From a virus: a stretch of 5,621 nucleotides of DNA. Below the pieces are notes generated by a model that had not been told where the DNA came from, did not search any database, and worked only from the letters and a program-made list of their open reading frames with translations. This document shows, in pieces, positions 1 to 5,621 of this stretch. The stretch spans positions 1-5,621 of IMG/VR virus record IMGVR_UViG_3300045988_000419. One strand, given 5' to 3'. The translations under genes and the position numbers were made by a program. The first letter of the stretch is position 1, and each line of letters opens with the position of its first letter.

Positions 1-141
1 GATGATAATGCGGCCTTCCTGTTTGCTCTCCGTACTCTCCTGCGCAGAAATAGCGTAAGCCCGGCTCTGAGGCCCTTCTAAGGCGTTTTATGAACTTCTG
101 CACATCCTCATACCATAGCGTTTGATTTGTCTTTAAATCGC
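1..141. repeat. Terminal redundancy copy 1 (identical to 5481-5621); marks circular genome closure
   Basis: Base-by-base reading shows gatgataatgcggccttcctg...ctttaaatcgc at both ends. Confidence 0.97.
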
Positions 142-490
142 CCTTTCTGCCGCTGTATACGCCACCTCTGAAAACTTCACCGGTTTCGTGGTTGATGCAT
201 GGCACATGAGTGTCATCATAAGTTAGCGTAAGAAAATATACACTATTTGGTATAGATGTTTTTGCTTCCATTTCAATTCTTGCCGCCCAGTCTTGCCGTT
301 TCCGGATTCTACATCCGATGCATTGCCCGCACGGTACTAGCATAACGTCTTTTCGATAGATAAGGTCTTCGTATGTCAAGTTCGGATTATGTGCTCTTTC
401 AAGCGCAAAGCGCCTGAGCGTGTATACATGCCCAGACGCTTCACGGTCTTCTGGCACATAAAACCGGATTAACGGTTTATAACATGCCAT
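1..490 (-). CDS. VP4: Replication initiation protein VP4 (HUH rolling-circle endonuclease), N-terminal part. The ORF runs off the window start and continues at 5480 because the genome is circular. The full gene is 490..1 joined to 5480..4954, 338 aa.
   Basis: Manual translation from ATG 490..488 gives MACYKPLIRFYVPEDREASGHVYTLRRFALERAHNPNLTYEDLIYRKDVMLVPCGQCIGCRIRKRQDWAARIEMEAKTSIPNSVYFLTLTYDDTHVPC... with no stop down to base 1. It is in frame with the 4954..5583 ORF (490-103=387, divisible by 3). It carries a CGQCIGC Cys cluster, RCR motif I FLTLTY (about 218-235) and an HYH motif at 2-10. An AGGAG SD lies at 503..499, 8 nt upstream of the ATG. Confidence 0.93.
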   Translation of the reverse strand, partial: MACYKPLIRFYVPEDREASGHVYTLRRFALERAHNPNLTYEDLIYRKDVMLVPCGQCIGCRIRKRQDWAARIEMEAKTSIPNSVYFLTLTYDDTHVPCINHETGEVFRGGVYSGRKGDLKTNQTLWYEDVQKFIKRLRRASEPGLRYFCAGEYGEQTGRPHYH

Positions 491-493
491 TGC

Positions 494-1351
494 TTATTCT
501 CCTGTATCTCCGTTCAGATCCTGTCGTCTTTTCGCCTTTTCCTGAAGAGTTTTGCTTACTTTGCCTGCGCTGGTTTTCGCCACATCGGTGACTTTGTCTT
601 CGATGTTTTTTTCGGCCTCTGCTTTCTGTTCCTGGTCTTCTTCGGTTTTGTTGATAATCGTTCCCACGTCTTTGGCCAGTTGCTGAAAGCTGTACCCGCT
701 GTTAAATCCTTGCTGGTAATAGTCACTGACTGCGCTTGCAATGTTGTGGCTCGCATTTGCGCTGAGCTGGAAATTGCTACTTAGTGCACTTCCTCCTAGT
801 GCGCTTGTGCTTCCCAGTCCCATACTTGCCGCTCCGATTGTGCCCGCACCGCCTCCCGGTGTGCTTGCGCCTCCGTTCATTGCCGCCAAGATTGGGTTGA
901 TTCCTGCGGCCCTCATGTCTTTCACGGCTCTTTGGTAGGCTGTACTGCTCATGTGCTCTTGCCAATCGCGGTTTGCTTGAGCTTCTGCGGAGTTGTAGGC
1001 CATTGCCTCCTGCATCATTTTGCGGTTAAATTTGCCTTGATAATTCATCATGTTTCGGTTTAGCATGTATTGCAGTCCGCTTGAACCCAAGTTTCCGAGT
1101 CTCTGTAAAACCATGCTTCCGAGGTTTACGACGTCGTTACTTCCTCCGATGCTTCCGCCGATTCCCCAGCCTTCGCTTCCGCTTTCGCTGTGCCCTCCGC
1201 CCTGCGTGTATCCATTGTTGCCGCTTGTCGTTAAGGTTGTGTTGCCGCTTGTGTCATAGTATAGCTGCTCGTTTTGTTTTCGGTTTTGCCAAGAGTTCCA
1301 CAGATTGACACCTGCGTTTATGAGGCTTGGCACTACGCTCCAAAAACCCAT
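494..1351 (-). CDS. VP2: Minor capsid / DNA pilot protein VP2 (285 aa)
   Basis: It sits directly downstream of VP1, the typical gokushovirus position. It has a Gly/Ser-rich low-complexity core, an N-terminus MGFWSVVPSLINAG, and a conserved-looking STAYQRAVKDMRAAGINPILA segment typical of gokushovirus VP2. Its TAA stop (494-496) is 3 nt before the VP4 ATG. Confidence 0.88.
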   Translation of the reverse strand: MGFWSVVPSLINAGVNLWNSWQNRKQNEQLYYDTSGNTTLTTSGNNGYTQGGGHSESGSEGWGIGGSIGGSNDVVNLGSMVLQRLGNLGSSGLQYMLNRNMMNYQGKFNRKMMQEAMAYNSAEAQANRDWQEHMSSTAYQRAVKDMRAAGINPILAAMNGGASTPGGGAGTIGAASMGLGSTSALGGSALSSNFQLSANASHNIASAVSDYYQQGFNSGYSFQQLAKDVGTIINKTEEDQEQKAEAEKNIEDKVTDVAKTSAGKVSKTLQEKAKRRQDLNGDTGE

Positions 1352-1393: not shown

Positions 1394-3046
1394 TTAGTGA
1401 TGATCTACCAGACCCGGGACGCTATAGAGCGGCATCGGCCGGACAGTTGTGTTTTTCACGAGGATGTCCATGATGAACTGTGGTTCGTCCTGAATTGCGA
1501 GAGTACGTTGAATTTCAGCTTTGCCCTCTTTCATCCACTCCTGAGAGAGCACAGGCACTGAGCTGTATTCGTCGGCATAGTGCCAAGAGTCCAGTGTGCC
1601 GTTTGCGTTGCTTCTGAAGAGGCCACAGACGCGGTTCGGTTTCATCCTGTATTCGCTCCATGCTTCCTGATAGCCGAAGGCCTCTTCGTCGGATGCTTCC
1701 GCTGTTGCGTAAAGCTCCTTTTTCAGTACTGCCTGCTCGCCCAAGTTTGCGAATACCGGGAAGTAGAAATCCAGCTTGTTTTTCCGACTCCACATCCGCT
1801 CGATGCCCTGTTGATATGTGTGGTCGTGTCGCACGCAGCACACACCGATGACCCAGCCGTGTTCTTCGAAGGACTTCGTAAAAGAACTTTTGCCAAATCC
1901 GGTTACGGACACTGCCGCTACGTTGCCCTGCGGGCTTTCCGTGGTCGTGCCGCTCGTCTGCACAACTTGGTTAATGTTGATCATGACCCGGTCGCCGCCC
2001 AGATACTCCGGAATCTGTGCTGTTTTATCGCTGATGCGCGTCCGGAATAGACTGTAAATTTGCTCACGATACCGAGAGCCGCCCCGTGCCAGCTCTTCGA
2101 AGTACTTTTGCACCTGAAAAGCTTTTCTCAGTTCGTTGATGCTTGTTGCGTTGACTTTCGAAAGGTCCGCGCCTAGGTAGGCTTGTTTATCACCCGTGGC
2201 GAAGATCGCTCTATTGTCGGGCATGCCGAGTATGCCCGCTGTGCCGGTCCGTTCGATTGTTCCGTTGTATATTGCGTAAAGCGATGAGTCCCATTCGGTT
2301 TTTACGTTGGCGTTTTTGTAACCTTTAATGGGCGCGTTACCGCTCAATGGAATTCTAACCGGGTCTCCCGCTCTCTGAGGCGAAGGGAGACTGCTGGAGA
2401 AGTAGTCGTGAAAGCGGTTGACAGGAAGAGGACGACCGCCCGTATATGCTTGCTGGAGAATCTTTTCGATGTTGTCCCCTGCGTCGTCCTTGTAGTCCAC
2501 AGTTGCGTCTGTCACACTGTTGATTGCCGGATTGTCCACGTTCTGGTCTCTGAACCACTCATTCCAGATTTTCACATACGCACGAATTGGCAGTGCGTTG
2601 ATTTCTGTTTTCTTCCCTGCGCCGACAAATTTGGTCGGAATGCCCATATAGTCGAGGATGCTGGCTTCTTTCGGCAGTTTGTCGGTGTCGCTTGTACCCG
2701 TGATTTTGATAGTCGGAACAGTGTACTCGACTGCCTGCACCCACGGCTCATCGGTGACTTCGCCCATGAATTCCTTCCAATGCTCCCACAGAATACGGTT
2801 CGGAACAAAGAAATAATAGTAATCCAAGTATGCGTTGTCCATTACCGGAAAAATCGGTGTGGTCATACGAATAATTGCACTCTGGTCTACAGAGAAGGTA
2901 TCGCCGGGCAAGACTTCATCCACATAAAAAGGAATGAGCTTGCCAGCGTCGAATGTTAACTTAATATCTTGGTCGCGCTTGAAACGGCTTCGCGTGATTT
3001 CCAGTGCTGGCACTTGGTTAAAGTGCGCCTCATTGTTGCGTTTCAT
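1394..3046 (-). CDS. VP1: Major capsid protein VP1 (phiX174 F-like jelly-roll, 550 aa)
   Basis: It carries hallmark gokushovirus VP1 motifs: HFNQVPALEITRSRF, GKLIPFYVDEVLPGDTF, PVMDNAYLDYYYFFVPNRILWEHWKEFMGE, INELRKAFQVQKYFEELARGGSRY and IPEYLGG. A GGAGG SD lies 7 nt upstream of the ATG (3046..3044). Confidence 0.97.
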   Translation of the reverse strand: MKRNNEAHFNQVPALEITRSRFKRDQDIKLTFDAGKLIPFYVDEVLPGDTFSVDQSAIIRMTTPIFPVMDNAYLDYYYFFVPNRILWEHWKEFMGEVTDEPWVQAVEYTVPTIKITGTSDTDKLPKEASILDYMGIPTKFVGAGKKTEINALPIRAYVKIWNEWFRDQNVDNPAINSVTDATVDYKDDAGDNIEKILQQAYTGGRPLPVNRFHDYFSSSLPSPQRAGDPVRIPLSGNAPIKGYKNANVKTEWDSSLYAIYNGTIERTGTAGILGMPDNRAIFATGDKQAYLGADLSKVNATSINELRKAFQVQKYFEELARGGSRYREQIYSLFRTRISDKTAQIPEYLGGDRVMININQVVQTSGTTTESPQGNVAAVSVTGFGKSSFTKSFEEHGWVIGVCCVRHDHTYQQGIERMWSRKNKLDFYFPVFANLGEQAVLKKELYATAEASDEEAFGYQEAWSEYRMKPNRVCGLFRSNANGTLDSWHYADEYSSVPVLSQEWMKEGKAEIQRTLAIQDEPQFIMDILVKNTTVRPMPLYSVPGLVDHH

Positions 3047-3534
3047 TACTCACCCTCCTTTTTGGCGTTATTTTCAGGTGGCTTTTCAAGTGGATTTTCC
3101 TTTAAAATGTCCAATTTCTTGGCCCATTCCACTGTGCCGTAGTCGTGGATGAATTTATCCACGTCGTTGTCGAACTTCTGCTTGGTTTCGCTCGGGAGCT
3201 TATCCCAAGTTTGCTCGGCCTGGATCATGAGATTCTGAGCTTCTGCCAGCGTTGTTGGCATTTCCGTATAGTCTACCGGTTCGCCGTCTCCCAGACTTGC
3301 GCCCAGTTTCTGTGCCGCTTCCGGATCAAAAGTGGCTCTCCTGATGATGTTTTCGATTTTAGTCTCTTCAAGGAAACTTTGGATTTCTGCATCCCTGTCG
3401 ATTTCCTCATCGAGAGCCAGTTCCTTTTTGCCTTCGCTGTTGTACTTCCACCGAAAAGTGCGCCGGATTTTATCACCCGACGCACTTGCCTCTTTCGGCA
3501 CTGCACTTGCGGTCGTGAGTCCGAATATCTTCAT
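3046..3534 (-). CDS. VP3: Internal scaffolding protein VP3 (162 aa)
   Basis: It is acidic and helical, immediately upstream of VP1, with a VDYTEMPTTLAEAQNLMIQAEQTWDKLPSETKQKFDNDVDKFI block resembling the Chlamydia-phage-type scaffold family. A GGAG SD lies 7 nt upstream. Its stop overlaps the VP1 start (TAATG at 3048..3044). Confidence 0.87.
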   Translation of the reverse strand: MKIFGLTTASAVPKEASASGDKIRRTFRWKYNSEGKKELALDEEIDRDAEIQSFLEETKIENIIRRATFDPEAAQKLGASLGDGEPVDYTEMPTTLAEAQNLMIQAEQTWDKLPSETKQKFDNDVDKFIHDYGTVEWAKKLDILKENPLEKPPENNAKKEGE

Positions 3535-3782
3535 TACTTGTCTCCTTCGCTGGCGTTGTTCGGCTTACCGTTACAGACTTTCCTCTGGGTGTTGGTGAAA
3601 GTGCCCTTGTCTTCGTCGAACTGGCCGATCTTGTAAAGTGCATAGTCTTCCGGTTCCTGTGCCATCTGACCCGTTTTGCAGGCCGCACAGAACGCTCGCG
3701 TTGCCGTTCCGTCGTTGATCGATTCGAACATCCCCATGAATTTCTGTGCCACATAGTCATATACGCTGTACATGTTCATCAT
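3534..3782 (-). CDS. Small conserved gokushovirus non-structural protein (VP5-like, 82 aa); function uncertain
   Basis: The pattern MYSVYDYVAQKF..F.S.NDGTATRAF.....PEDYALYKIGQFDEDKGTF matches, from memory, a small protein family found just upstream of VP3 in many gokushoviruses. An AAAGGAGAA SD lies 7 nt upstream. Its stop overlaps the VP3 start (TAATG at 3536..3532). Confidence 0.8.
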   Translation of the reverse strand: MMNMYSVYDYVAQKFMGMFESINDGTATRAFCAACKTGQMAQEPEDYALYKIGQFDEDKGTFTNTQRKVCNGKPNNASEGDK

Positions 3783-3855: not shown

Positions 3856-4038
3856 TCAGAGTCTGATTCCTCCTCTCATAGGCTTTGCTGTGAGGTTGAT
3901 ACTCTTCGTTTGGTTGGCCGTCTTGTTGTAGATTTTGGCATCCTTACGACGGCGGACTTTGTTTCTCTTGCTCAACTTCTTCACACCTCCATTCTTCAGA
4001 TCCTCTTCCAATTTCTCTTCGGATTTGCTCCATTTCAA
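3856..4038 (-). CDS. Small highly basic DNA-binding/packaging protein (phiX174 J-like / gokushovirus ORF8-like). The coordinates give the maximal ORF, and the true start is probably internal.
   Basis: The C-terminal part, KKLSKRNKVRRRKDAKIYNKTANQTKSINLTAKPMRGGIRL, is very Lys/Arg-rich. From memory, the PMRGGIRL ending recurs in small basic microvirus proteins. The track start at 4038 is a TTG. Alternative starts are GTG 3984..3982 and TTG 3975..3973, both downstream of a GGAGG at 3990..3986. There is no in-frame ATG before the C-terminal Met. It overlaps the 88-aa ORF in another frame. Confidence 0.62.
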   Translation of the reverse strand: MKWSKSEEKLEEDLKNGGVKKLSKRNKVRRRKDAKIYNKTANQTKSINLTAKPMRGGIRL

Positions 4039-4210
4039 TACTATTCGCGAAAGCCTTCTTTTGAAATGCCATGTCGATGTAAAACTTTGCGTCTTCGATT
4101 GTGGCCGCTTGCTGGCTCAGTTTGTAGGCGTTTTTGATTTCCTTGTAAGTCCTTGCAAGTGTCGTCCTTAGAGTCTCGTCGGACTGGTCTTGTACGCTCC
4201 AGCATTTCAT
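3944..4210 (-). CDS. Hypothetical protein, 88 aa, predicted helical; no recognisable family
   Basis: It has an ATG start at 4210..4208, preceded by a strong GAGGAGG SD (4223..4217) with a 6-nt spacer. It is on the same strand and in operon context with the other genes, and its charged, helical composition is plausible for a real protein. Confidence 0.68.
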   Translation of the reverse strand: MKCWSVQDQSDETLRTTLARTYKEIKNAYKLSQQAATIEDAKFYIDMAFQKKAFANSIEMEQIRREIGRGSEEWRCEEVEQEKQSPPS

Positions 4211-4221
4211 GTGATGCCTCC

Positions 4222-4347
4222 TCAGCTCATGTTGTTGGCGTTCTCGTTCTTATCTTCCAGCATGTGATAAATTTTATCAAGGACTGCGAGGATTTCGCGC
4301 AGTTTGCTAAAGATAGCGTTGACTTCTTTAAAGGTCGTTGTTATCAT
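4222..4347 (-). CDS. Hypothetical 41-aa protein MITTTFKEVNAIFSKLREILAVLDKIYHMLEDKNENANNMS (speculative first cistron)
   Basis: Hand-translated. The ATG at 4347..4345 is preceded by GAGGGGG, and the predicted transcription start is only about 8 nt upstream. The TGA stop (4224..4222) overlaps the SD of the next gene. The sequence looks like an amphipathic helix. Confidence 0.38.
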   Translation of the reverse strand: MITTTFKEVNAIFSKLREILAVLDKIYHMLEDKNENANNMS

Positions 4348-4361
4348 CCCCCTCGTAACCC

Positions 4362-4390
4362 ATTATACTACTGCCGCCGTTTTTTTTCAA
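4362..4390 (-). promoter_or_regulatory. Sigma70/SigA-type promoter for the whole minus-strand operon
   Basis: The minus strand reads TTGAAA (4390..4385), then a 17-nt spacer AAAAACGGCGGCAGTAG, then TATAAT (4367..4362). This places the start about 7 nt downstream (near 4355), just ahead of the first SD and ATG. Confidence 0.6.
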
Positions 4391-4440
4391 CCGCGCAGAA
4401 TAGCCAAGGTTGCGCAAGCAATTTTGGGCGTTCTGCGCGG
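4391..4440. promoter_or_regulatory. 10-bp perfect inverted repeat abutting the -35 box (candidate operator or cruciform)
   Basis: ccgcgcagaa (4391-4400) and ttctgcgcgg (4431-4440) are exact reverse complements separated by 30 nt. The spacer contains the palindrome ttgcgcaa (4410-4417) and a ccaa/ttgg pairing. Confidence 0.7.
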
Positions 4441-4468
4441 TTTGCCCGCTGCAGGCGAAACTTTGAGT

Positions 4469-4495
4469 TTTCAACACTTTCAACACTTTCAACAG
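4469..4495. repeat. Tandem 9-bp iterons: TTTCAACAC, TTTCAACAC, TTTCAACAG
   Basis: Three head-to-tail units occupy 4469-4477, 4478-4486 and 4487-4495. Confidence 0.9.
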
Positions 4496-4510
4496 GTTTT
4501 CCACAAAATG

Positions 4511-4532
4511 TTGCACAAAGGATTTTGTGCAA
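4511..4532. other. 9-bp hairpin between the two iteron clusters
   Basis: ttgcacaaa (4511-4519) pairs with tttgtgcaa (4524-4532), with a 4-nt loop ggat. A mutually exclusive 8-bp pairing is possible between cacaaaat (4502-4509) and attttgtg (4522-4529). Confidence 0.75.
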
Positions 4533-4543
4533 ATTGCTATATT

Positions 4544-4581
4544 CTCAACAATTCAACAATCTTTCAACAAAGTTTTCAACC
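4544..4581. repeat. Second cluster of the same motif: CTCAACA, TTCAACA, TTCAACA, TTCAACC at 8-12 bp spacing
   Basis: Copies lie at 4544-4550, 4552-4558, 4563-4569 and 4575-4581, all in the same orientation as the 4469-4495 array. Further copies lie at 4629-4635 and at the -35 box (4386-4392). Confidence 0.85.
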
Positions 4582-4694
4582 TTCTTTTGTGCGCTTTTTT
4601 TACGATGATATGTAAGAAAATGGCACTATTCAACATTTCCACACTCTCTACTACTACGGCTACAACAAATAAAATATAATAATAACTGCGAATT

Positions 4695-4753
4695 CGTATA
4701 CGCACGCGCGTGCGCGCGCGCGTTTCGCGTGCGTGCATGTGTGTGTGTATGCG
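4695..4753. repeat. Two perfect 28-nt alternating pyrimidine-purine tracts (CG/CA/TG/TA dinucleotides) separated by TTT; Z-DNA-prone low complexity
   Basis: 4695-4722 is cgtatacgcacgcgcgtgcgcgcgcgcg and 4726-4753 is cgcgtgcgtgcatgtgtgtgtgtatgcg. Every position alternates Y-R. The region contains a 14-bp perfect palindrome, cgcacgcgcgtgcg (4701-4714), and a 9-bp stem between 4700-4708 and 4726-4734. Confidence 0.9.
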
Positions 4754-4783
4754 AATACCTATGTGTGAGCAAAGCGAACGCAC

Positions 4784-4802
4784 CAACGCCGTATAGGCGT
4801 TG
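4784..4802. other. Small 7-bp hairpin
   Basis: caacgcc (4784-4790) pairs with ggcgttg (4796-4802), with loop gtata. Confidence 0.6.
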
Positions 4803-4814
4803 TGGTATGGAGGT

Positions 4815-4847
4815 TCGGGGGGTAGCGGCAGAACGCTCACCCCCCGA
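4815..4847. other. GC-rich hairpin (G-run / C-run stem)
   Basis: tcggggggt (4815-4823) pairs with accccccga (4839-4847). After a 1-nt bulge (c4838), agcg (4824-4827) pairs with cgct (4834-4837). The loop is gcagaa. There is no flanking U-tract on either strand. Confidence 0.75.
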
Positions 4848-4865
4848 TAATATTCTTGGTAATAG

Positions 4866-4894
4866 AAAACCCCATGTTTCTAACATGGAGTTTT
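4866..4894 (-). terminator. Rho-independent (bidirectional-looking) terminator ending the operon
   Basis: The minus-strand RNA reads AAAACUCCAUGUU-AGA-AACAUGGGGUUUU followed by CUAUU. This gives a 13-bp stem (one G-U) with a 3-nt loop and a U-tract. It lies about 60 nt downstream of the VP4 stop. Confidence 0.6.
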
Positions 4895-4904
4895 GTTGTA
4901 AATC

Positions 4905-4952
4905 TGTCAACGGGCCAAGTTGCAGCCTTGTTAGTAACTTGGCCCGTTGACA
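4905..4952 (-). other. 17-bp perfect hairpin starting 2 nt after the VP4 stop (candidate terminator, origin or priming structure)
   Basis: 4905-4921 (tgtcaacgggccaagtt) is the exact reverse complement of 4936-4952, with a 14-nt loop gcagccttgttagt. The mRNA-sense strand carries CAACTTG (4922..4916) at the loop-stem junction. Confidence 0.7.
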
Positions 4953-4953
4953 C

Positions 4954-5621
4954 TTAAATTTTTCCGGATGCTTTCCGGTGCTTCTTGATTCGGTCTTCTT
5001 GTCCCTTTAGATACTCTTCAATACTAACGTTAGTACGTCCATATTTATCCTTACAGGCGTCTATTGCTTTAGCTTGTCGCGCCTCTTTTAAGGCCCAAAC
5101 TCTGCGTATGTCCTTTTCTTCCATCTGCTTTTCAAAATACCGTGGTATTTGTGCTCTCCGGCCCCCCGAGAGTTGCACATAGCCTTGCGTCCAGATTTCT
5201 TCTTCGTGTTCAAGATAGTATTGCTGACCTATACCCGGGTGTAAGCTCATCCTGCAAAATGGTGGTTGTAAGCCGTTGCGGATGTGAGCTTGTGTTTCCT
5301 CGTCCACCTTTTTTGTGACGTATCCTGCCACATAGCTGAAGGTTGTAAAGTCGTTTGTACAGGCTAAATTGTGTATCCCATATGTCCATAGTTTTGTGAT
5401 ACGCTCGTCTGTGTAGTATCCTTCTTTGCTGAGAAGTCGGTACGGCTTGAGTTTCTCCGGAAAATAGTTAAAAAGTATAAGATGATAATGCGGCCTTCCT
5501 GTTTGCTCTCCGTACTCTCCTGCGCAGAAATAGCGTAAGCCCGGCTCTGAGGCCCTTCTAAGGCGTTTTATGAACTTCTGCACATCCTCATACCATAGCG
5601 TTTGATTTGTCTTTAAATCGC
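4954..5621 (-). CDS. VP4: Replication initiation protein VP4, C-terminal part. The same gene as 1..490, and 5481-5621 duplicates 1-141.
   Basis: The ORF-track entry 4954..5583 begins at an internal GTG, which is an artefact of linearisation. It contains HUH motif II (RPHYHLILFN) and motif III YVAGYVTKK (5308-5334), with two Tyr spaced Y-x-x-x-Y as in the phiX174 gene A protein. The stop is TAA at 4954-4956. Confidence 0.93.
   Translation of the reverse strand, partial: DLKTNQTLWYEDVQKFIKRLRRASEPGLRYFCAGEYGEQTGRPHYHLILFNYFPEKLKPYRLLSKEGYYTDERITKLWTYGIHNLACTNDFTTFSYVAGYVTKKVDEETQAHIRNGLQPPFCRMSLHPGIGQQYYLEHEEEIWTQGYVQLSGGRRAQIPRYFEKQMEEKDIRRVWALKEARQAKAIDACKDKYGRTNVSIEEYLKGQEDRIKKHRKASGKI
5481..5621. 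repeat. Terminal redundancy copy 2 (identical to 1-141)
   Basis: Same as copy 1. The unit length is 5,480 nt. Confidence 0.97.

What the first reader, a model, noticed from the sequence alone, without database searches (positions are those of the whole stretch)
4386..4635. Eight same-orientation TTCAAC iterons (plus one CTCAAC variant) flanking a hairpin and reaching the -35 box
Exact TTCAAC occurs at 4386, 4470, 4479, 4488, 4552, 4563, 4575 and 4629. A CTCAAC variant occurs at 4544. All nine are in one orientation within 250 nt. A given 6-mer is expected only about 1.4 times per strand in the whole window. Three copies form a perfect 9-bp-period tandem array, four more are spaced 8-12 bp apart, and the two clusters bracket the 4511-4532 hairpin. 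On the coding strand the motif reads GTTGAA(A), the same as the promoter -35 hexamer. The array could therefore be (a) Rep or host-factor iterons around an origin hairpin, as in CRESS-DNA viruses and RCR plasmids, (b) a sigma-factor or RNA-polymerase sink or UP-like element, or (c) binding sites for a phage or host regulator.
Basis: partly seen in the sequence, partly recalled or inferred. Interest (0 to 1): 0.72.

Follow-up and report, generated by a model that had tools for sequence, protein, structure and literature searches.

The report
Bacterial origin look-alike in gut phage
The repeated TTCAAC motifs are binding sites for DnaA, the bacterial protein that starts chromosome replication, and with the unwinding signal beside them they are laid out as in the chromosome origins of Ruminococcus-type gut bacteria, so this small single-stranded-DNA phage appears to carry a working-style copy of its host's origin, which also hints at its unknown host.

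Summary
All eight TTCAAC copies and the CTCAAC variant are at the stated coordinates, and the clustering is far beyond chance.

The window is a complete gut gokushovirus genome with its genes on the minus strand.

The real repeat unit is a 9-mer, TTTTCAACA or TTTTCCACA. In 50 related phage genomes the same slots hold TTTTCAACA, TTTTCCACA or the canonical DnaA box TTATCCACA.

The last two boxes (4627-4643) are followed by:
- a 4-nt spacer;
- CTA CTA CTA ... trios (4648-4668);
- an AT-rich tract (4669-4686).

This has the same geometry as the B. subtilis oriC 'basal unwinding system'. The same boxes and the same ending fill the dnaA-dnaN spacer of Ruminococcus and Oscillospiraceae genomes.

The module is more conserved than the capsid gene. 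It is inverted in about a fifth of relatives, including the closest one, and it has no single-strand structure. I therefore think it acts on double-stranded replicative-form DNA.

Best explanation: an oriC-like module that recruits DnaA and unwinds DNA. DnaA binding and unwinding are inferred, not shown.

The hairpin is specific to a subclade and consists of two convergent boxes. The Rep-iteron and sigma-sink readings are not supported.

I found no report of this for Microviridae.

The parts
4468..4494 (+). Three abutting DnaA boxes with a 9-bp period: TTTTCAACA, CTTTCAACA, CTTTCAACA.
   Evidence: Sequence and repeat family D1. The slots are conserved in 50 relatives. The same tandem arrangement is found in Ruminococcus dnaA-dnaN spacers and box clusters.
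4497..4505 (+). DnaA box TTTTCCACA, an exact match to TTWTNCACA.
   Evidence: Among relatives this slot holds TTTTCAACA (26), TTTTCCACA (18) or TTTTCCACG (4).
4509..4517 (+). DnaA-box-like 9-mer TGTTGCACA, which forms the left arm of the hairpin.
   Evidence: One mismatch to TTWTNCACA. Relatives hold T/AGTTGCACA in 28 of 50.
4526..4534 (-). Inverted DnaA-box-like 9-mer ATTTGCACA. With 4509-4517 it forms the 4511-4532 hairpin. It is specific to a subclade.
   Evidence: I15. The stem is present in only 14 of 50 relatives.
4542..4581 (+). Second array of four same-orientation boxes: TTCTCAACA (4542), AATTCAACA (4550), CTTTCAACA (4561) and TTTTCAACC (4573).
   Evidence: D2. Slot 4561 holds the canonical TTATCCACA in 11 of 50 relatives and TTTTCAACA in 26.
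4582..4626 (.). Variable AT-rich spacer between the distal arrays and the proximal box pair. In this genome it has imperfect hairpin potential at about 4588-4625.
   Evidence: The columns are poorly conserved apart from an ACG. The fold of the virion strand shows a weak stem here.
4627..4643 (+). Proximal pair of boxes offset by 8 bp, TATTCAACA and ATTTCCACA. This is the box pair of the unwinding module.
   Evidence: The 9+8 layout is the same as B. subtilis boxes 6 and 7, TTATCCACA|AATCCACA. The consensus in relatives is TTTTCAAC|TTTTCCACA.
4644..4647 (.). 4-nt spacer, CTCT (consensus CTCC).
   Evidence: The length is the same as the 4-nt 'GC-rich' gap in Firmicutes origins.
4648..4668 (-). 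DnaA-trio run. The + strand reads CTA CTA CTA CGG CTA CAA CAA, so the minus strand reads 3'-GAT GAT GAT GCC GAT GTT GTT-5'.
   Evidence: This is the only (CTA)3 run in the window. The columns are invariant in relatives. It matches the 3'-GAT-5' trio consensus and sits on the correct strand relative to the boxes. Oscillospiraceae origins end in CTACTACTACTACTA.
4669..4686 (.). AT-rich tract ATAAAATATAATAATAAC (17 of 18 bases are A or T), the presumed unwinding element.
   Evidence: Sequence. The tract is conserved as TTAATATATAATA in relatives. It matches MG945388 in inverted orientation at 85% identity.
4384..4392 (+). Outlying 9-mer TTTTCAACC that overlaps the -35 (TTGAAA) of the promoter at 4390..4362 on the minus strand. 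It is probably not part of the conserved module.
   Evidence: The DNA left of about 4467 is not conserved among relatives.

Best explanation
The TTCAAC 'iterons' are the cores of 9-bp DnaA boxes. These are TTTTCAACA and TTTTCCACA, the box variants used in the chromosome origins of Ruminococcus and Oscillospiraceae.

About eleven boxes lie in 4468-4643, and ten of them point the same way. They lead into a proximal pair of abutting boxes, a 4-nt spacer, a run of DnaA-trios (4648-4668) and an AT-rich tract (4669-4686). Together these form a phage-borne copy of the bacterial oriC 'basal unwinding system'.

Proposed mechanism on the double-stranded replicative form:
1. Host DnaA fills the box arrays.
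2. ATP-DnaA oligomerises from the proximal boxes onto the trio strand.
3. The AT-rich tract melts.

The anatomy, the conservation and the match to bacterial origins are shown here. DnaA binding and unwinding are inferred from the established mechanism of such modules.

What the opening is used for is speculative. The options I consider are:
- loading of the host replicative helicase, giving theta-type replication of the replicative form;
- giving the phage Rep (VP4) access to single-stranded DNA;
- in any case, titration of DnaA.

The box variants point to a Ruminococcaceae or Oscillospiraceae host.
For: (1) The unit is a DnaA box.
- TTTTCCACA at 4497 matches TTWTNCACA exactly.
- Across 50 unique related elements, homologous slots interchange TTTTCAACA, TTTTCCACA and the canonical TTATCCACA. 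Slot 4561 holds 26, 2 and 11 of these; slot 4497 holds 26 TTTTCAACA and 18 TTTTCCACA.
- The supplementary tables of Pelliciari 2021 (PMC8287927) list TTTTCAACA-GGT-TTTTCAACA in the Ruminococcus albus 7 origin. They list TTATTAACA|TATCAACA in Clostridium botulinum. They give TTTTCAACA as the species-specific box motif used for Chlamydophila.

(2) The module geometry matches published origins.
- Window: TATTCAACA|TTTCCACA|CTCT|CTA CTA CTA CGG CTA CAA CAA|AT-rich.
- B. subtilis: TTATCCACA|AATCCACA|GGCC|CTACTATTACTTCTACTA.
- The published search rules are a box with at most 2 mismatches, a spacer of at most 16 nt and at least 3 NAN trios.

(3) Bacterial origins use the same boxes and the same ending.
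- A scan of 185,579 species genomes for three closely spaced boxes is expected to give 0.3-2 chance hits.
- About 68 of the 120 loci are Clostridia, and about 42 of those are Oscillospiraceae or Ruminococc*.
- At least 23 loci lie directly beside dnaA and/or dnaN. Pfam confirms DnaA and DnaN in L121 and DnaA in L060.
- Those spacers hold 12-25 same-orientation TTTTCAACA or TTTTCCACA boxes. They end in box(es)-NNNN-CTACTACTACTACTA followed by an AT-rich tract.
- TTTCAACA is the top 8-mer both in the phage elements and in these spacers.

(4) Selection acts on the motifs.
- The element is the only DNA that megablast finds in 9 of 11 related records, and 37 records match by blastn.
- It is 70-86% identical at the nucleotide level, while VP1 is 41-73% and VP4 32-58% identical at the amino-acid level.
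- Boxes and trios are invariant, while the spacers vary.

(5) It acts on double-stranded DNA.
- The module is inverted relative to the genes in 10 of 50 relatives and sits in two different intergenic positions.
- It is inverted in the closest relative, MG945388, while all coding DNA stays collinear.
- The box region has no significant single-strand structure (z = -1.9). The neighbouring 4680-4960 stretch has z = -9.1.

(6) Host type. Strong Shine-Dalgarno sites and a sigma-70-type promoter fit a Firmicutes-type host.
Against: - There is no experimental evidence that DnaA binds or that the tract unwinds.
- Classical microvirus replication (phiX174) needs no DnaA. A rolling-circle phage has no obvious need for an oriC-type origin.
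- In the window the proximal upstream box, TATTCAACA, has 3 mismatches to TTATCCACA. The window also has only three uninterrupted GAT trios, and its spacer (CTCT) is not GC-rich.
- The bacterial comparison loci were selected with a pattern built from the phage motif. Most are metagenome-assembled genomes, so the taxonomy may be imprecise.
- No prophage or CRISPR link ties these phages to Ruminococcaceae. None of the 120 genome loci holds VP1, VP2 or VP4.
- The cultured gokushoviruses phiMH2K, Chp2 and SpV4 lack such a module, so it is not a general requirement of the subfamily.
- A pure DnaA-titration or regulatory role cannot be excluded.
Confidence: 0.68

Rival explanations
1. DnaA sponge or sensor. 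The array binds host DnaA but never fires as an origin. In this reading its role is one of two things. Either many replicative-form copies, each with about 11 boxes, titrate DnaA and block host initiation, like datA or the B. subtilis DnaA-box clusters. Or phage transcription is coupled to DnaA-ATP levels.
For: The evidence for box identity is the same as for the main explanation. The arrays lie upstream of the promoter at 4390..4362, and one box-like 9-mer overlaps its -35. Large box clusters away from dnaA also exist in Ruminococcus (L157). A function that does not depend on orientation fits a binding-only role.
Against: Titration needs only boxes. Yet the parts most invariant across 50 relatives include the trio run, the fixed 4-nt spacing and the AT-rich tract. 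Those parts are specific to unwinding. The promoter-proximal stretch (4384-4467) is not conserved.
Confidence: 0.2
2. Complementary-strand origin that acts on single-stranded DNA. On the incoming virion strand, the 4509-4534 hairpin presents a duplex DnaA box. DnaA then nucleates a primosome, as at the 'A site' of the ABC primosome. (The A site is from my own knowledge of Masai & Arai 1995; I did not check it here.)
For: The hairpin is made of two convergent DnaA-box-like 9-mers. In the majority orientation the packaged (coding) strand carries the 5'-TAG-3' trio strand.
Against: The hairpin is present in only 14 of 50 relatives. All the other boxes share one orientation, so they stay single-stranded in the virion strand, whose fold is unremarkable (z = -1.9). 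One fifth of relatives package the opposite strand of the module. The strongly structured stretch 4680-4960 is a better candidate for a single-strand origin.
Confidence: 0.05
3. Iterons for a phage protein. VP4 (Rep) or a small phage DNA-binding protein binds the repeats around an origin hairpin, as in CRESS-DNA viruses or rolling-circle plasmids.
For: These are direct repeats next to the Rep gene in a rolling-circle replicon. A hairpin lies between the two clusters in this genome.
Against: The repeats are invariant while VP4 is 32-58% identical among carriers. They are the same 9-mers that fill bacterial dnaA-dnaN spacers. They interchange with TTATCCACA. The hairpin is not conserved. The module is inverted relative to the packaged strand in a fifth of relatives. 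No phiX174-type origin core is present, with none found at up to 3 mismatches.
Confidence: 0.04
4. Promoter-related element. In this reading the repeats are extra -35 hexamers that act as a sigma-factor or RNA polymerase sink, or as an UP-like element.
For: On the coding strand GTTGAA(A) contains TTGAAA. The copies at 4386 and 4629 overlap -35 hexamers of promoter-like matches.
Against: Homologous slots hold TGTGGAAA or TGTGGATAA, which are not -35-like. The conserved unit is 9 nt. The -10 partner of the 4633..4605 match falls in the non-conserved spacer. The module is inverted in about 20% of relatives.
Confidence: 0.02

Closest known systems
Bacterial oriC basal unwinding system (BUS): DnaA boxes 6 and 7, DnaA-trios and an AT-rich element in B. 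subtilis incC (Richardson 2016/2019; Pelliciari 2021, PMC8287927, PMC6669920)
   Same: Two abutting same-orientation boxes (9+8 nt), a 4-nt spacer, 3'-GAT-5' trios on the strand complementary to 5'-TTATCCACA-3', and then an AT-rich tract. Further upstream boxes are separated from this by a spacer. The element has the same box variants and the same CTACTACTAC trios as Oscillospiraceae and Ruminococcus origins.
   Different: It sits in a 5.6-kb single-stranded-DNA rolling-circle phage, not next to dnaA or dnaN on a chromosome. It is compact, at about 220 bp. It is invertible relative to its flanks. In the window the spacer is not GC-rich and the trio run is interrupted after three units. Function is untested.
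DnaA boxes in plasmid and phage theta origins (P1 oriR, F, pSC101, RK2, R6K). This comparison rests on my own knowledge.
   Same: A mobile replicon recruits host DnaA through boxes in its origin.
   Different: Those origins pair one to a few DnaA boxes with iterons for their own Rep initiator, which does the opening. Here no separate iterons are seen, the only repeats are DnaA boxes, and a complete chromosomal-type trio and unwinding module is present. The phage's own Rep is an HUH nickase.
DnaA-titrating box clusters (E. coli datA, B. subtilis DnaA-box clusters). This comparison rests on my own knowledge.
   Same: A dense cluster of DnaA boxes outside the chromosomal origin, present here in multiple copies.
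   Different: Titration loci lack a conserved trio run and unwinding element. In this element those are the most invariant parts.
Complementary-strand origins of single-stranded-DNA phages and the DnaA-dependent 'A site' (ABC primosome). This comparison rests on my own knowledge.
   Same: It lies in the intergenic region of a single-stranded-DNA phage. In this genome one hairpin carries DnaA-box-like sequence in its stem.
   Different: Those elements work as folded single strands on a fixed strand. This module is unstructured as a single strand and occurs in both orientations.
Iteron/stem-loop origins of CRESS-DNA viruses and rolling-circle plasmids
   Same: Direct repeats near the Rep gene of a rolling-circle replicon.
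   Different: There is no conserved nick-site stem-loop, no co-variation with Rep, and the repeats equal the host's DnaA boxes.

Membership tests
DnaA box cluster | An asymmetric 9-bp motif that matches TTWTNCACA or a documented species-specific variant. | tested here: met
   TTTTCCACA at 4497 is an exact match. TGTTGCACA, ATTTCCACA and ATTTGCACA(-) each have 1 mismatch. TTTTCAACA is listed in the R. albus 7 origin and as the motif used for Chlamydophila in PMC8287927 table S. It is also the dominant 8/9-mer in Ruminococcus and Oscillospiraceae dnaA-dnaN spacers.
DnaA box cluster | Homologous positions tolerate only box-compatible changes and interchange with the canonical TTATCCACA. | tested here: met
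   Slot analysis of 50 elements. Slot 4561 holds TTTTCAACA 26, TTATCCACA 11 and TTTTCCACA 2. Slot 4497 holds TTTTCAACA 26 and TTTTCCACA 18.
DnaA box cluster | Sequence-specific binding by DnaA domain IV. | not testable with these tools
   This needs EMSA, footprinting or ChIP with the host DnaA.
oriC basal unwinding system (BUS) | A DnaA box, usually a tandem same-orientation pair at most 3 bp apart, lying 0-16 bp from the trios. | tested here: met
   The boxes are 4627-4635 and 4635-4643 (8-bp offset), followed by a 4-nt spacer. This is the same 9+8+4 layout as B. subtilis. ATTTCCACA has 2 mismatches to TTATCCACA and TATTCAACA has 3, which is within the published limits of at most 2 and at most 4.
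oriC basal unwinding system (BUS) | At least 3 consecutive DnaA-trios (3'-NAN-5', consensus 3'-GAT-5') on the strand complementary to 5'-TTATCCACA-3'. | tested here: met
   The minus strand reads 3'-GAT GAT GAT GCC GAT GTT GTT-5' at 4648-4668. Relatives mostly read GAT GAT GAT GAn GAT. The strand relation was checked against the published B. subtilis and E. coli entries.
oriC basal unwinding system (BUS) | An intrinsically unstable AT-rich tract beyond the trios. | tested here: met
   In 4669-4686, 17 of 18 bases are A or T. The tract is conserved in relatives.
oriC basal unwinding system (BUS) | A chromosomal location at the origin, typically flanking dnaA or dnaN. | tested here: not met
   The element lies between VP4 and the next gene of a microvirus. 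This is why I call it oriC-like and not an oriC.
oriC basal unwinding system (BUS) | Strand separation and helicase loading that depend on ATP-DnaA. | not testable with these tools
   This needs biochemical unwinding assays or in vivo replication assays.
Rolling-circle Rep iteron / nick-site stem-loop origin (CRESS viruses, RCR plasmids, phiX174) | A conserved stem-loop or core sequence that carries the nick site, flanked by iterons that co-vary with Rep and fixed on the packaged strand. | tested here: not met
   The hairpin is present in 14 of 50 relatives. The repeats are invariant while VP4 is 32-58% identical. The module is inverted in 10 of 50 relatives. No phiX174 origin core was found at up to 3 mismatches.
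Sigma-70 promoter -35 / UP element | A hexamer with a -10 partner at 16-18 bp, in a fixed orientation relative to the transcribed genes. | tested here: not met
   Only 4386 (and weakly 4629) has a -10 partner. Neither partner lies in conserved sequence. The orientation varies.
Known RNA family | A match to an Rfam covariance model at its gathering score. | tested here: not met
   There is no hit in 4386-4690. The only hits are sub-threshold miRNA-model matches on the (CG/TG)n palindrome and a weak greA-leader match.

The most novel reading that the evidence does not exclude
These gut gokushoviruses may use the module as a real second origin. In that case the double-stranded replicative form would replicate as a DnaA-dependent, oriC-type minichromosome in Ruminococcaceae or Oscillospiraceae cells. 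That would give a nominally lytic, non-integrating single-stranded-DNA phage a plasmid-like carrier state coupled to the host cell cycle. It could explain the long-term persistence of Microviridae in the gut. It would also make the 'dialect' of the origin boxes a host-prediction signal for uncultured phages.
Probability: 0.25. Interest if true: 0.9.

Novelty: new variant of a known kind. Interest (0 to 1): 0.78.

Why it matters
Microviridae are textbook rolling-circle replicons. They are thought to need only their Rep nickase plus host elongation factors.

A complete chromosomal-type DnaA box, trio and AT-rich module that is conserved more tightly than the capsid gene across a large clade of human, pig and monkey gut gokushoviruses would mean these phages tap the host's initiation machinery.

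If that is true, three things follow:
- It opens testable questions on how replicative-form DNA is amplified or maintained, including a possible plasmid-like carrier state.
- It suggests a DNA-level way for a phage to interfere with host initiation, by DnaA titration.
- It gives a concrete host hypothesis (Ruminococcus or Oscillospiraceae) for an abundant gut phage group that has no cultured host.

It also suggests a general method: reading the host's origin 'dialect' from phage noncoding DNA.

Tried and rejected
- My first IMG/VR scan used a mis-spaced pattern, CTACTACNNNNCTACAACAA. It returned only chance hits, so its null result is void. The corrected pattern found 34 microvirus genomes. 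Two further hits with at least 4 TTCMAC copies (L165, L281) are Thr/Ser-rich coding repeats.
- The Rfam scan of the whole window found nothing in the repeat region. It gave only sub-threshold miRNA-model hits on the (CG/TG)n palindrome and a weak greA-leader hit.
- I noticed a resemblance between CAACAAGTTAATAT and the phiX174 origin core. A search for AACTTGATATTAATAAC with up to 3 mismatches found nothing, so I dropped it.
- I looked for prophages to identify the host. None of the 120 bacterial loci holds VP1, VP2 or VP4, so the host assignment rests only on the box and trio variants, the Shine-Dalgarno sites and the promoter type.
- The plasmid database has no match to the element.
- The cultured gokushoviruses phiMH2K, Chp2 and SpV4 have no same-orientation box cluster with trios.
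- Five literature searches found no paper that links microviruses or gokushoviruses with DnaA boxes, or bacteriophage with an oriC-like origin and DnaA boxes. The one paper holding both 'gokushovir' and 'DnaA' is unrelated. The library covers open-access papers only.
- I considered homologous integration at the host origin and rejected it. Similarity to bacterial loci is limited to runs of short boxes (at most 38 nt at about 95%), and no integrated copies were seen.
Full report
**Context**

The 5621-nt window is a complete circular genome of the Gokushovirinae (Microviridae), with all genes on the minus strand.
- VP1 is at 3046..1394 (Pfam Phage_F, E = 6.5e-142).
- VP3 is at 3534..3046 (Chlamy_scaf) and VP5 at 3782..3534 (Phage_ORF5).
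- A VP2-sized ORF is at 1351..494.
- The C-terminal 209 codons of VP4 (Rep) are at 5583..4954.
- The VP4 frame stays open across the window ends back to ATG codons at 343 or 490, so the sequence closes into a circle.

The finding lies in the one long noncoding stretch, about 4348-4953, between the VP4 stop codon and the next ORFs downstream on the coding strand.

**Observation**

- The whole-window count of TTCAAC is only mildly high: 9 against a mean of 3.8 in shuffles.
- The clustering is far from chance. Eight copies lie on one strand within 250 nt. None of 5000 Markov resamples of the window exceeded 4, and none of 5000 resamples of the noncoding region alone exceeded 3.
- The 4511-4532 hairpin exists.
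- The copy at 4386 overlaps the -35 of a near-consensus promoter, TTGAAA-N17-TATAAT, on the minus strand at 4390..4362.

**Conservation**

- Megablast of the whole genome against GenBank phages found 11 records. For nine of them the only detectable DNA similarity was 4467-4681.
- More sensitive blastn found this stretch in 37 gut gokushovirus records from human, pig, monkey and dog, at 68-87% identity.
- The VP1 proteins of these phages are only 51-73% identical to the window's.
- A corrected pattern scan of IMG/VR added 34 microvirus genomes. Their VP1 is 41-72% and their VP4 32-58% identical to the window's.
- In an alignment of 50 unique elements the repeat units and a block just to their right are invariant or nearly so, while the stretches between them vary.
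- This pattern indicates purifying selection on the motifs, not recent common descent.

**What the unit is**

The conserved unit is a 9-mer, not a hexamer. The window holds the following:

| Start | 9-mer | Strand |
|---|---|---|
| 4468 | TTTTCAACA | + |
| 4477 | CTTTCAACA | + |
| 4486 | CTTTCAACA | + |
| 4497 | TTTTCCACA | + |
| 4509 | TGTTGCACA | + |
| 4534..4526 | ATTTGCACA | - |
| 4542 | TTCTCAACA | + |
| 4550 | AATTCAACA | + |
| 4561 | CTTTCAACA | + |
| 4573 | TTTTCAACC | + |
| 4627 | TATTCAACA | + |
| 4635 | ATTTCCACA | + |

- Across relatives the same slots switch between TTTTCAACA, TTTTCCACA and TTATCCACA. TTATCCACA is the canonical DnaA box. It occupies slot 4561 in 11 of 50 elements, against 26 with TTTTCAACA.
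- TTTTCCACA fits the general DnaA-box consensus TTWTNCACA exactly.
- The C-to-A variant TTTTCAACA is a documented box form. The supplementary tables of Pelliciari et al. 2021 (PMC8287927) list TTTTCAACA-GGT-TTTTCAACA in the Ruminococcus albus 7 origin. They list TTATTAACA|TATCAACA in Clostridium botulinum. They use TTTTCAACA as the species-specific motif for Chlamydophila.
That stem occurs in only 14 of 50 relatives.

Immediately after the last two boxes the + strand reads CTCT, then CTA CTA CTA CGG CTA CAA CAA, then ATAAAATATAATAATAAC (4644-4686).
- On the complementary strand this is 3'-GAT GAT GAT GCC GAT GTT GTT-5'. [quoted passage not shown]
- The published B. subtilis origin module is TTATCCACA|AATCCACA|GGCC|CTACTATTACTTCTACTA followed by AT-rich DNA.
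- The window reads TATTCAACA|TTTCCACA|CTCT|CTACTACTACGGCTACAACAA followed by AT-rich DNA.
- The two share the 9+8-nt abutting box pair, the 4-nt spacer, and the strand and direction of the trios relative to the boxes.
- The element meets the published search rules for this 'basal unwinding system': a box with at most 2 mismatches, a spacer of at most 16 nt, and at least three NAN trios.
- It is the only (CTA)3 run in the genome.

**Bacterial comparators**

I scanned one genome for each of 185,579 bacterial and archaeal species for three closely spaced boxes, using TTTCAACA-N1-4-TTTCMACA-N1-4-TTTCMACA.
- By my calculation about 0.3-2 chance hits are expected, depending on base composition.
- By record title about 68 loci are Clostridia, and about 42 of those are Oscillospiraceae, Ruminococcaceae or Ruminococcus.
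- At least 23 loci have dnaA and/or dnaN directly beside the match. This is a lower bound, because the stretches are cut at 8 kb.
- Pfam confirms DnaA and the beta-clamp on either side of the array in Ruminococcus sp. L121, and DnaA in L060.
- These dnaA-dnaN spacers hold 12-25 same-orientation TTTTCAACA or TTTTCCACA boxes. They include strings such as TTTTCAACAgTTTTCAACAggTTTTCCACA, almost the same as phage 4468-4505.
- They end in TTTTCCACA-GCCC-CTACTACTACTACTA or TTTTCAACA-G-TTTCAACA-CCCC-CTACTACTACTACTA, followed by AT-rich DNA and then dnaN.
- TTTCAACA is the most frequent 8-mer both in the 15 phage elements and in nine Oscillospiraceae and Ruminococcus spacers.
- Other Clostridia in the set favour TTTTCCACA with CTAATACTA-type trios. 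The phage variants therefore fit Ruminococcus and Oscillospiraceae best.
- None of the bacterial loci holds phage genes, so they are not prophages.
- Caveats: the loci were selected with a motif taken from the phage, and most are metagenome-assembled genomes.

**Double-stranded or single-stranded DNA, or RNA?**

Three results point to action on double-stranded DNA.
- First, the orientation of the module relative to the genes is not fixed. Of 50 carriers examined, 40 have the window's orientation and 10 the opposite.
- Second, the position varies. Most carriers have it downstream of VP4, while a KX513876-like clade has it between VP2 and VP4.
- The closest relative by VP1 is MG945388 (73.5% identity). 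All its coding DNA is collinear with the window, but the trio and AT-rich block matches on the opposite strand at 85% identity. Its neighbouring (CG/TG)n palindrome stays on the VP4 side. So the module behaves as a discrete, invertible cassette.
- Third, the virion (coding) strand across 4380-4690 folds no better than shuffles (z = -1.9). By contrast 4680-4960 forms five strong hairpins (z = -9.1).
- A strand-specific role is hard to reconcile with these results. That covers an mRNA leader, a single-strand origin, or a nick site fixed on the packaged strand.

**Mechanism proposed**

- Shown: the anatomy, its conservation, and its match to real chromosomal origins.
- Inferred from the established mechanism of such modules (PMC8287927, PMC6669920): on the replicative form, host DnaA occupies the distal arrays (4468-4581) and the proximal pair (4627-4643). 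ATP-DnaA then oligomerises onto the trio strand (4648-4668) and melts 4669-4686. The variable AT-rich spacer (4582-4626) may allow looping from the distal boxes, as proposed for incC.
- Speculative: what the opening is used for. Options are loading of the host replicative helicase for theta-type amplification or maintenance of the replicative form, or exposure of single-stranded DNA for VP4.
- Titration of DnaA by many replicative-form copies would happen in any case. It is the main rival as the selected function. It does not explain why the trio run, the spacing and the AT-rich tract are the most invariant parts.

**Rivals rejected or down-weighted**

- Rep iterons. The boxes are invariant while VP4 diverges to 32% identity. 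They equal the host boxes. The hairpin is not conserved. No phiX174-type core is present.
- Sigma sink or UP element. The TGTGGAAA and TGTGGATAA variants are not -35-like, and the orientation varies. Only the non-conserved outlier at 4386 is a plausible -35.
- An 'A-site'-like primosome site on the 4509-4534 hairpin is formally possible in this subclade only.

**Novelty**

- DnaA boxes are well known in plasmid and some phage theta origins. The basal unwinding system is well known in chromosomes. These two statements rest on my own knowledge and on PMC8287927.
- I found no report of DnaA boxes, or of an oriC-type module, in Microviridae. Five full-text searches returned nothing relevant. The library is open-access only.
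- The cultured gokushoviruses phiMH2K, Chp2 and SpV4 lack the module, and no plasmid in PLSDB matches it.
- I therefore rate it a new variant of a known kind. It is a chromosomal-type DnaA unwinding module carried as an invertible cassette by a clade of rolling-circle single-stranded-DNA phages.
- My confidence that these are DnaA boxes in an oriC-like arrangement is about 0.85. My confidence that the selected function is DnaA-driven unwinding or origin activity, rather than binding alone, is lower. The combined figure given is 0.68.

Noticed in passing
window 4688-4760: A GC-rich tract of about 70 nt with alternating purines and pyrimidines, (CG/TG)n. It is a near-palindrome lying directly after the AT-rich tract. 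Rfam gives only spurious sub-threshold miRNA-model hits on it (mir-3149, 42 bits against a gathering score of 100). Many relatives have a different (CG)n-rich palindrome at the same place. In MG945388 it stays on the VP4 side when the DnaA module is inverted. It may be prone to forming a cruciform or Z-DNA, or it may act as a boundary to unwinding.
   Followed up: partly
window 4765-4955 (virion strand = minus): Together with the palindrome above, this stretch forms five strong hairpins on the packaged strand (fold of 4680-4960, z = -9.1). They include a perfect 17-bp stem at 4905-4952, a G6/C6 stem at 4815-4847, and a terminator-like stem plus T-run at 4866-4894 just after the VP4 stop. They are candidates for a complementary-strand origin and/or transcription terminators.
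   Followed up: partly
window 4389-4442: An imperfect inverted repeat with 25-nt arms (80% complementary, 4-nt loop). It lies immediately upstream of, and touches, the -35 of the TTGAAA-N17-TATAAT promoter at 4390..4362 on the minus strand. It is not conserved in relatives.
   Followed up: no
window 4347..4222 and 4210..3944 (minus strand): Two small ORFs of 41 aa and 88 aa, with good Shine-Dalgarno sites and no Pfam family. They occupy the slot where many relatives encode a peptidase M15 (a likely lysis enzyme). The window appears to lack that peptidase.
   Followed up: no
window 1-493 joined to 4954-5621 (minus strand): The VP4 (Rep) ORF runs across the ends of the window. The frame stays open from 5583 through the junction to ATG codons at 343 or 490, which confirms a complete circular genome. 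The 209-aa ORF listed by the ORF tool is only the C-terminal part.
   Followed up: yes
L060 6478-7750 and L157 500-1120 (Ruminococcus sp. MAGs): Ruminococcus genomes hold very large arrays of TTTTCAACA and TTTTCCACA boxes. One is a 1.3-kb dnaA-dnaN spacer with about 29 boxes, including four repeats of the three-box unit. A second cluster of about 600 bp in L157 has no dnaA or dnaN within 8 kb and gives the best blastn match to the phage array. Origin architecture in this family looks unusual and seems undescribed.
   Followed up: partly
window 4267-4371 (minus strand): A weak, sub-threshold Rfam match to the enterobacterial greA leader (28 bits against a gathering score of 60, E = 0.057). It overlaps the promoter and the start of the 41-aa ORF and is most likely chance.
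   Followed up: no
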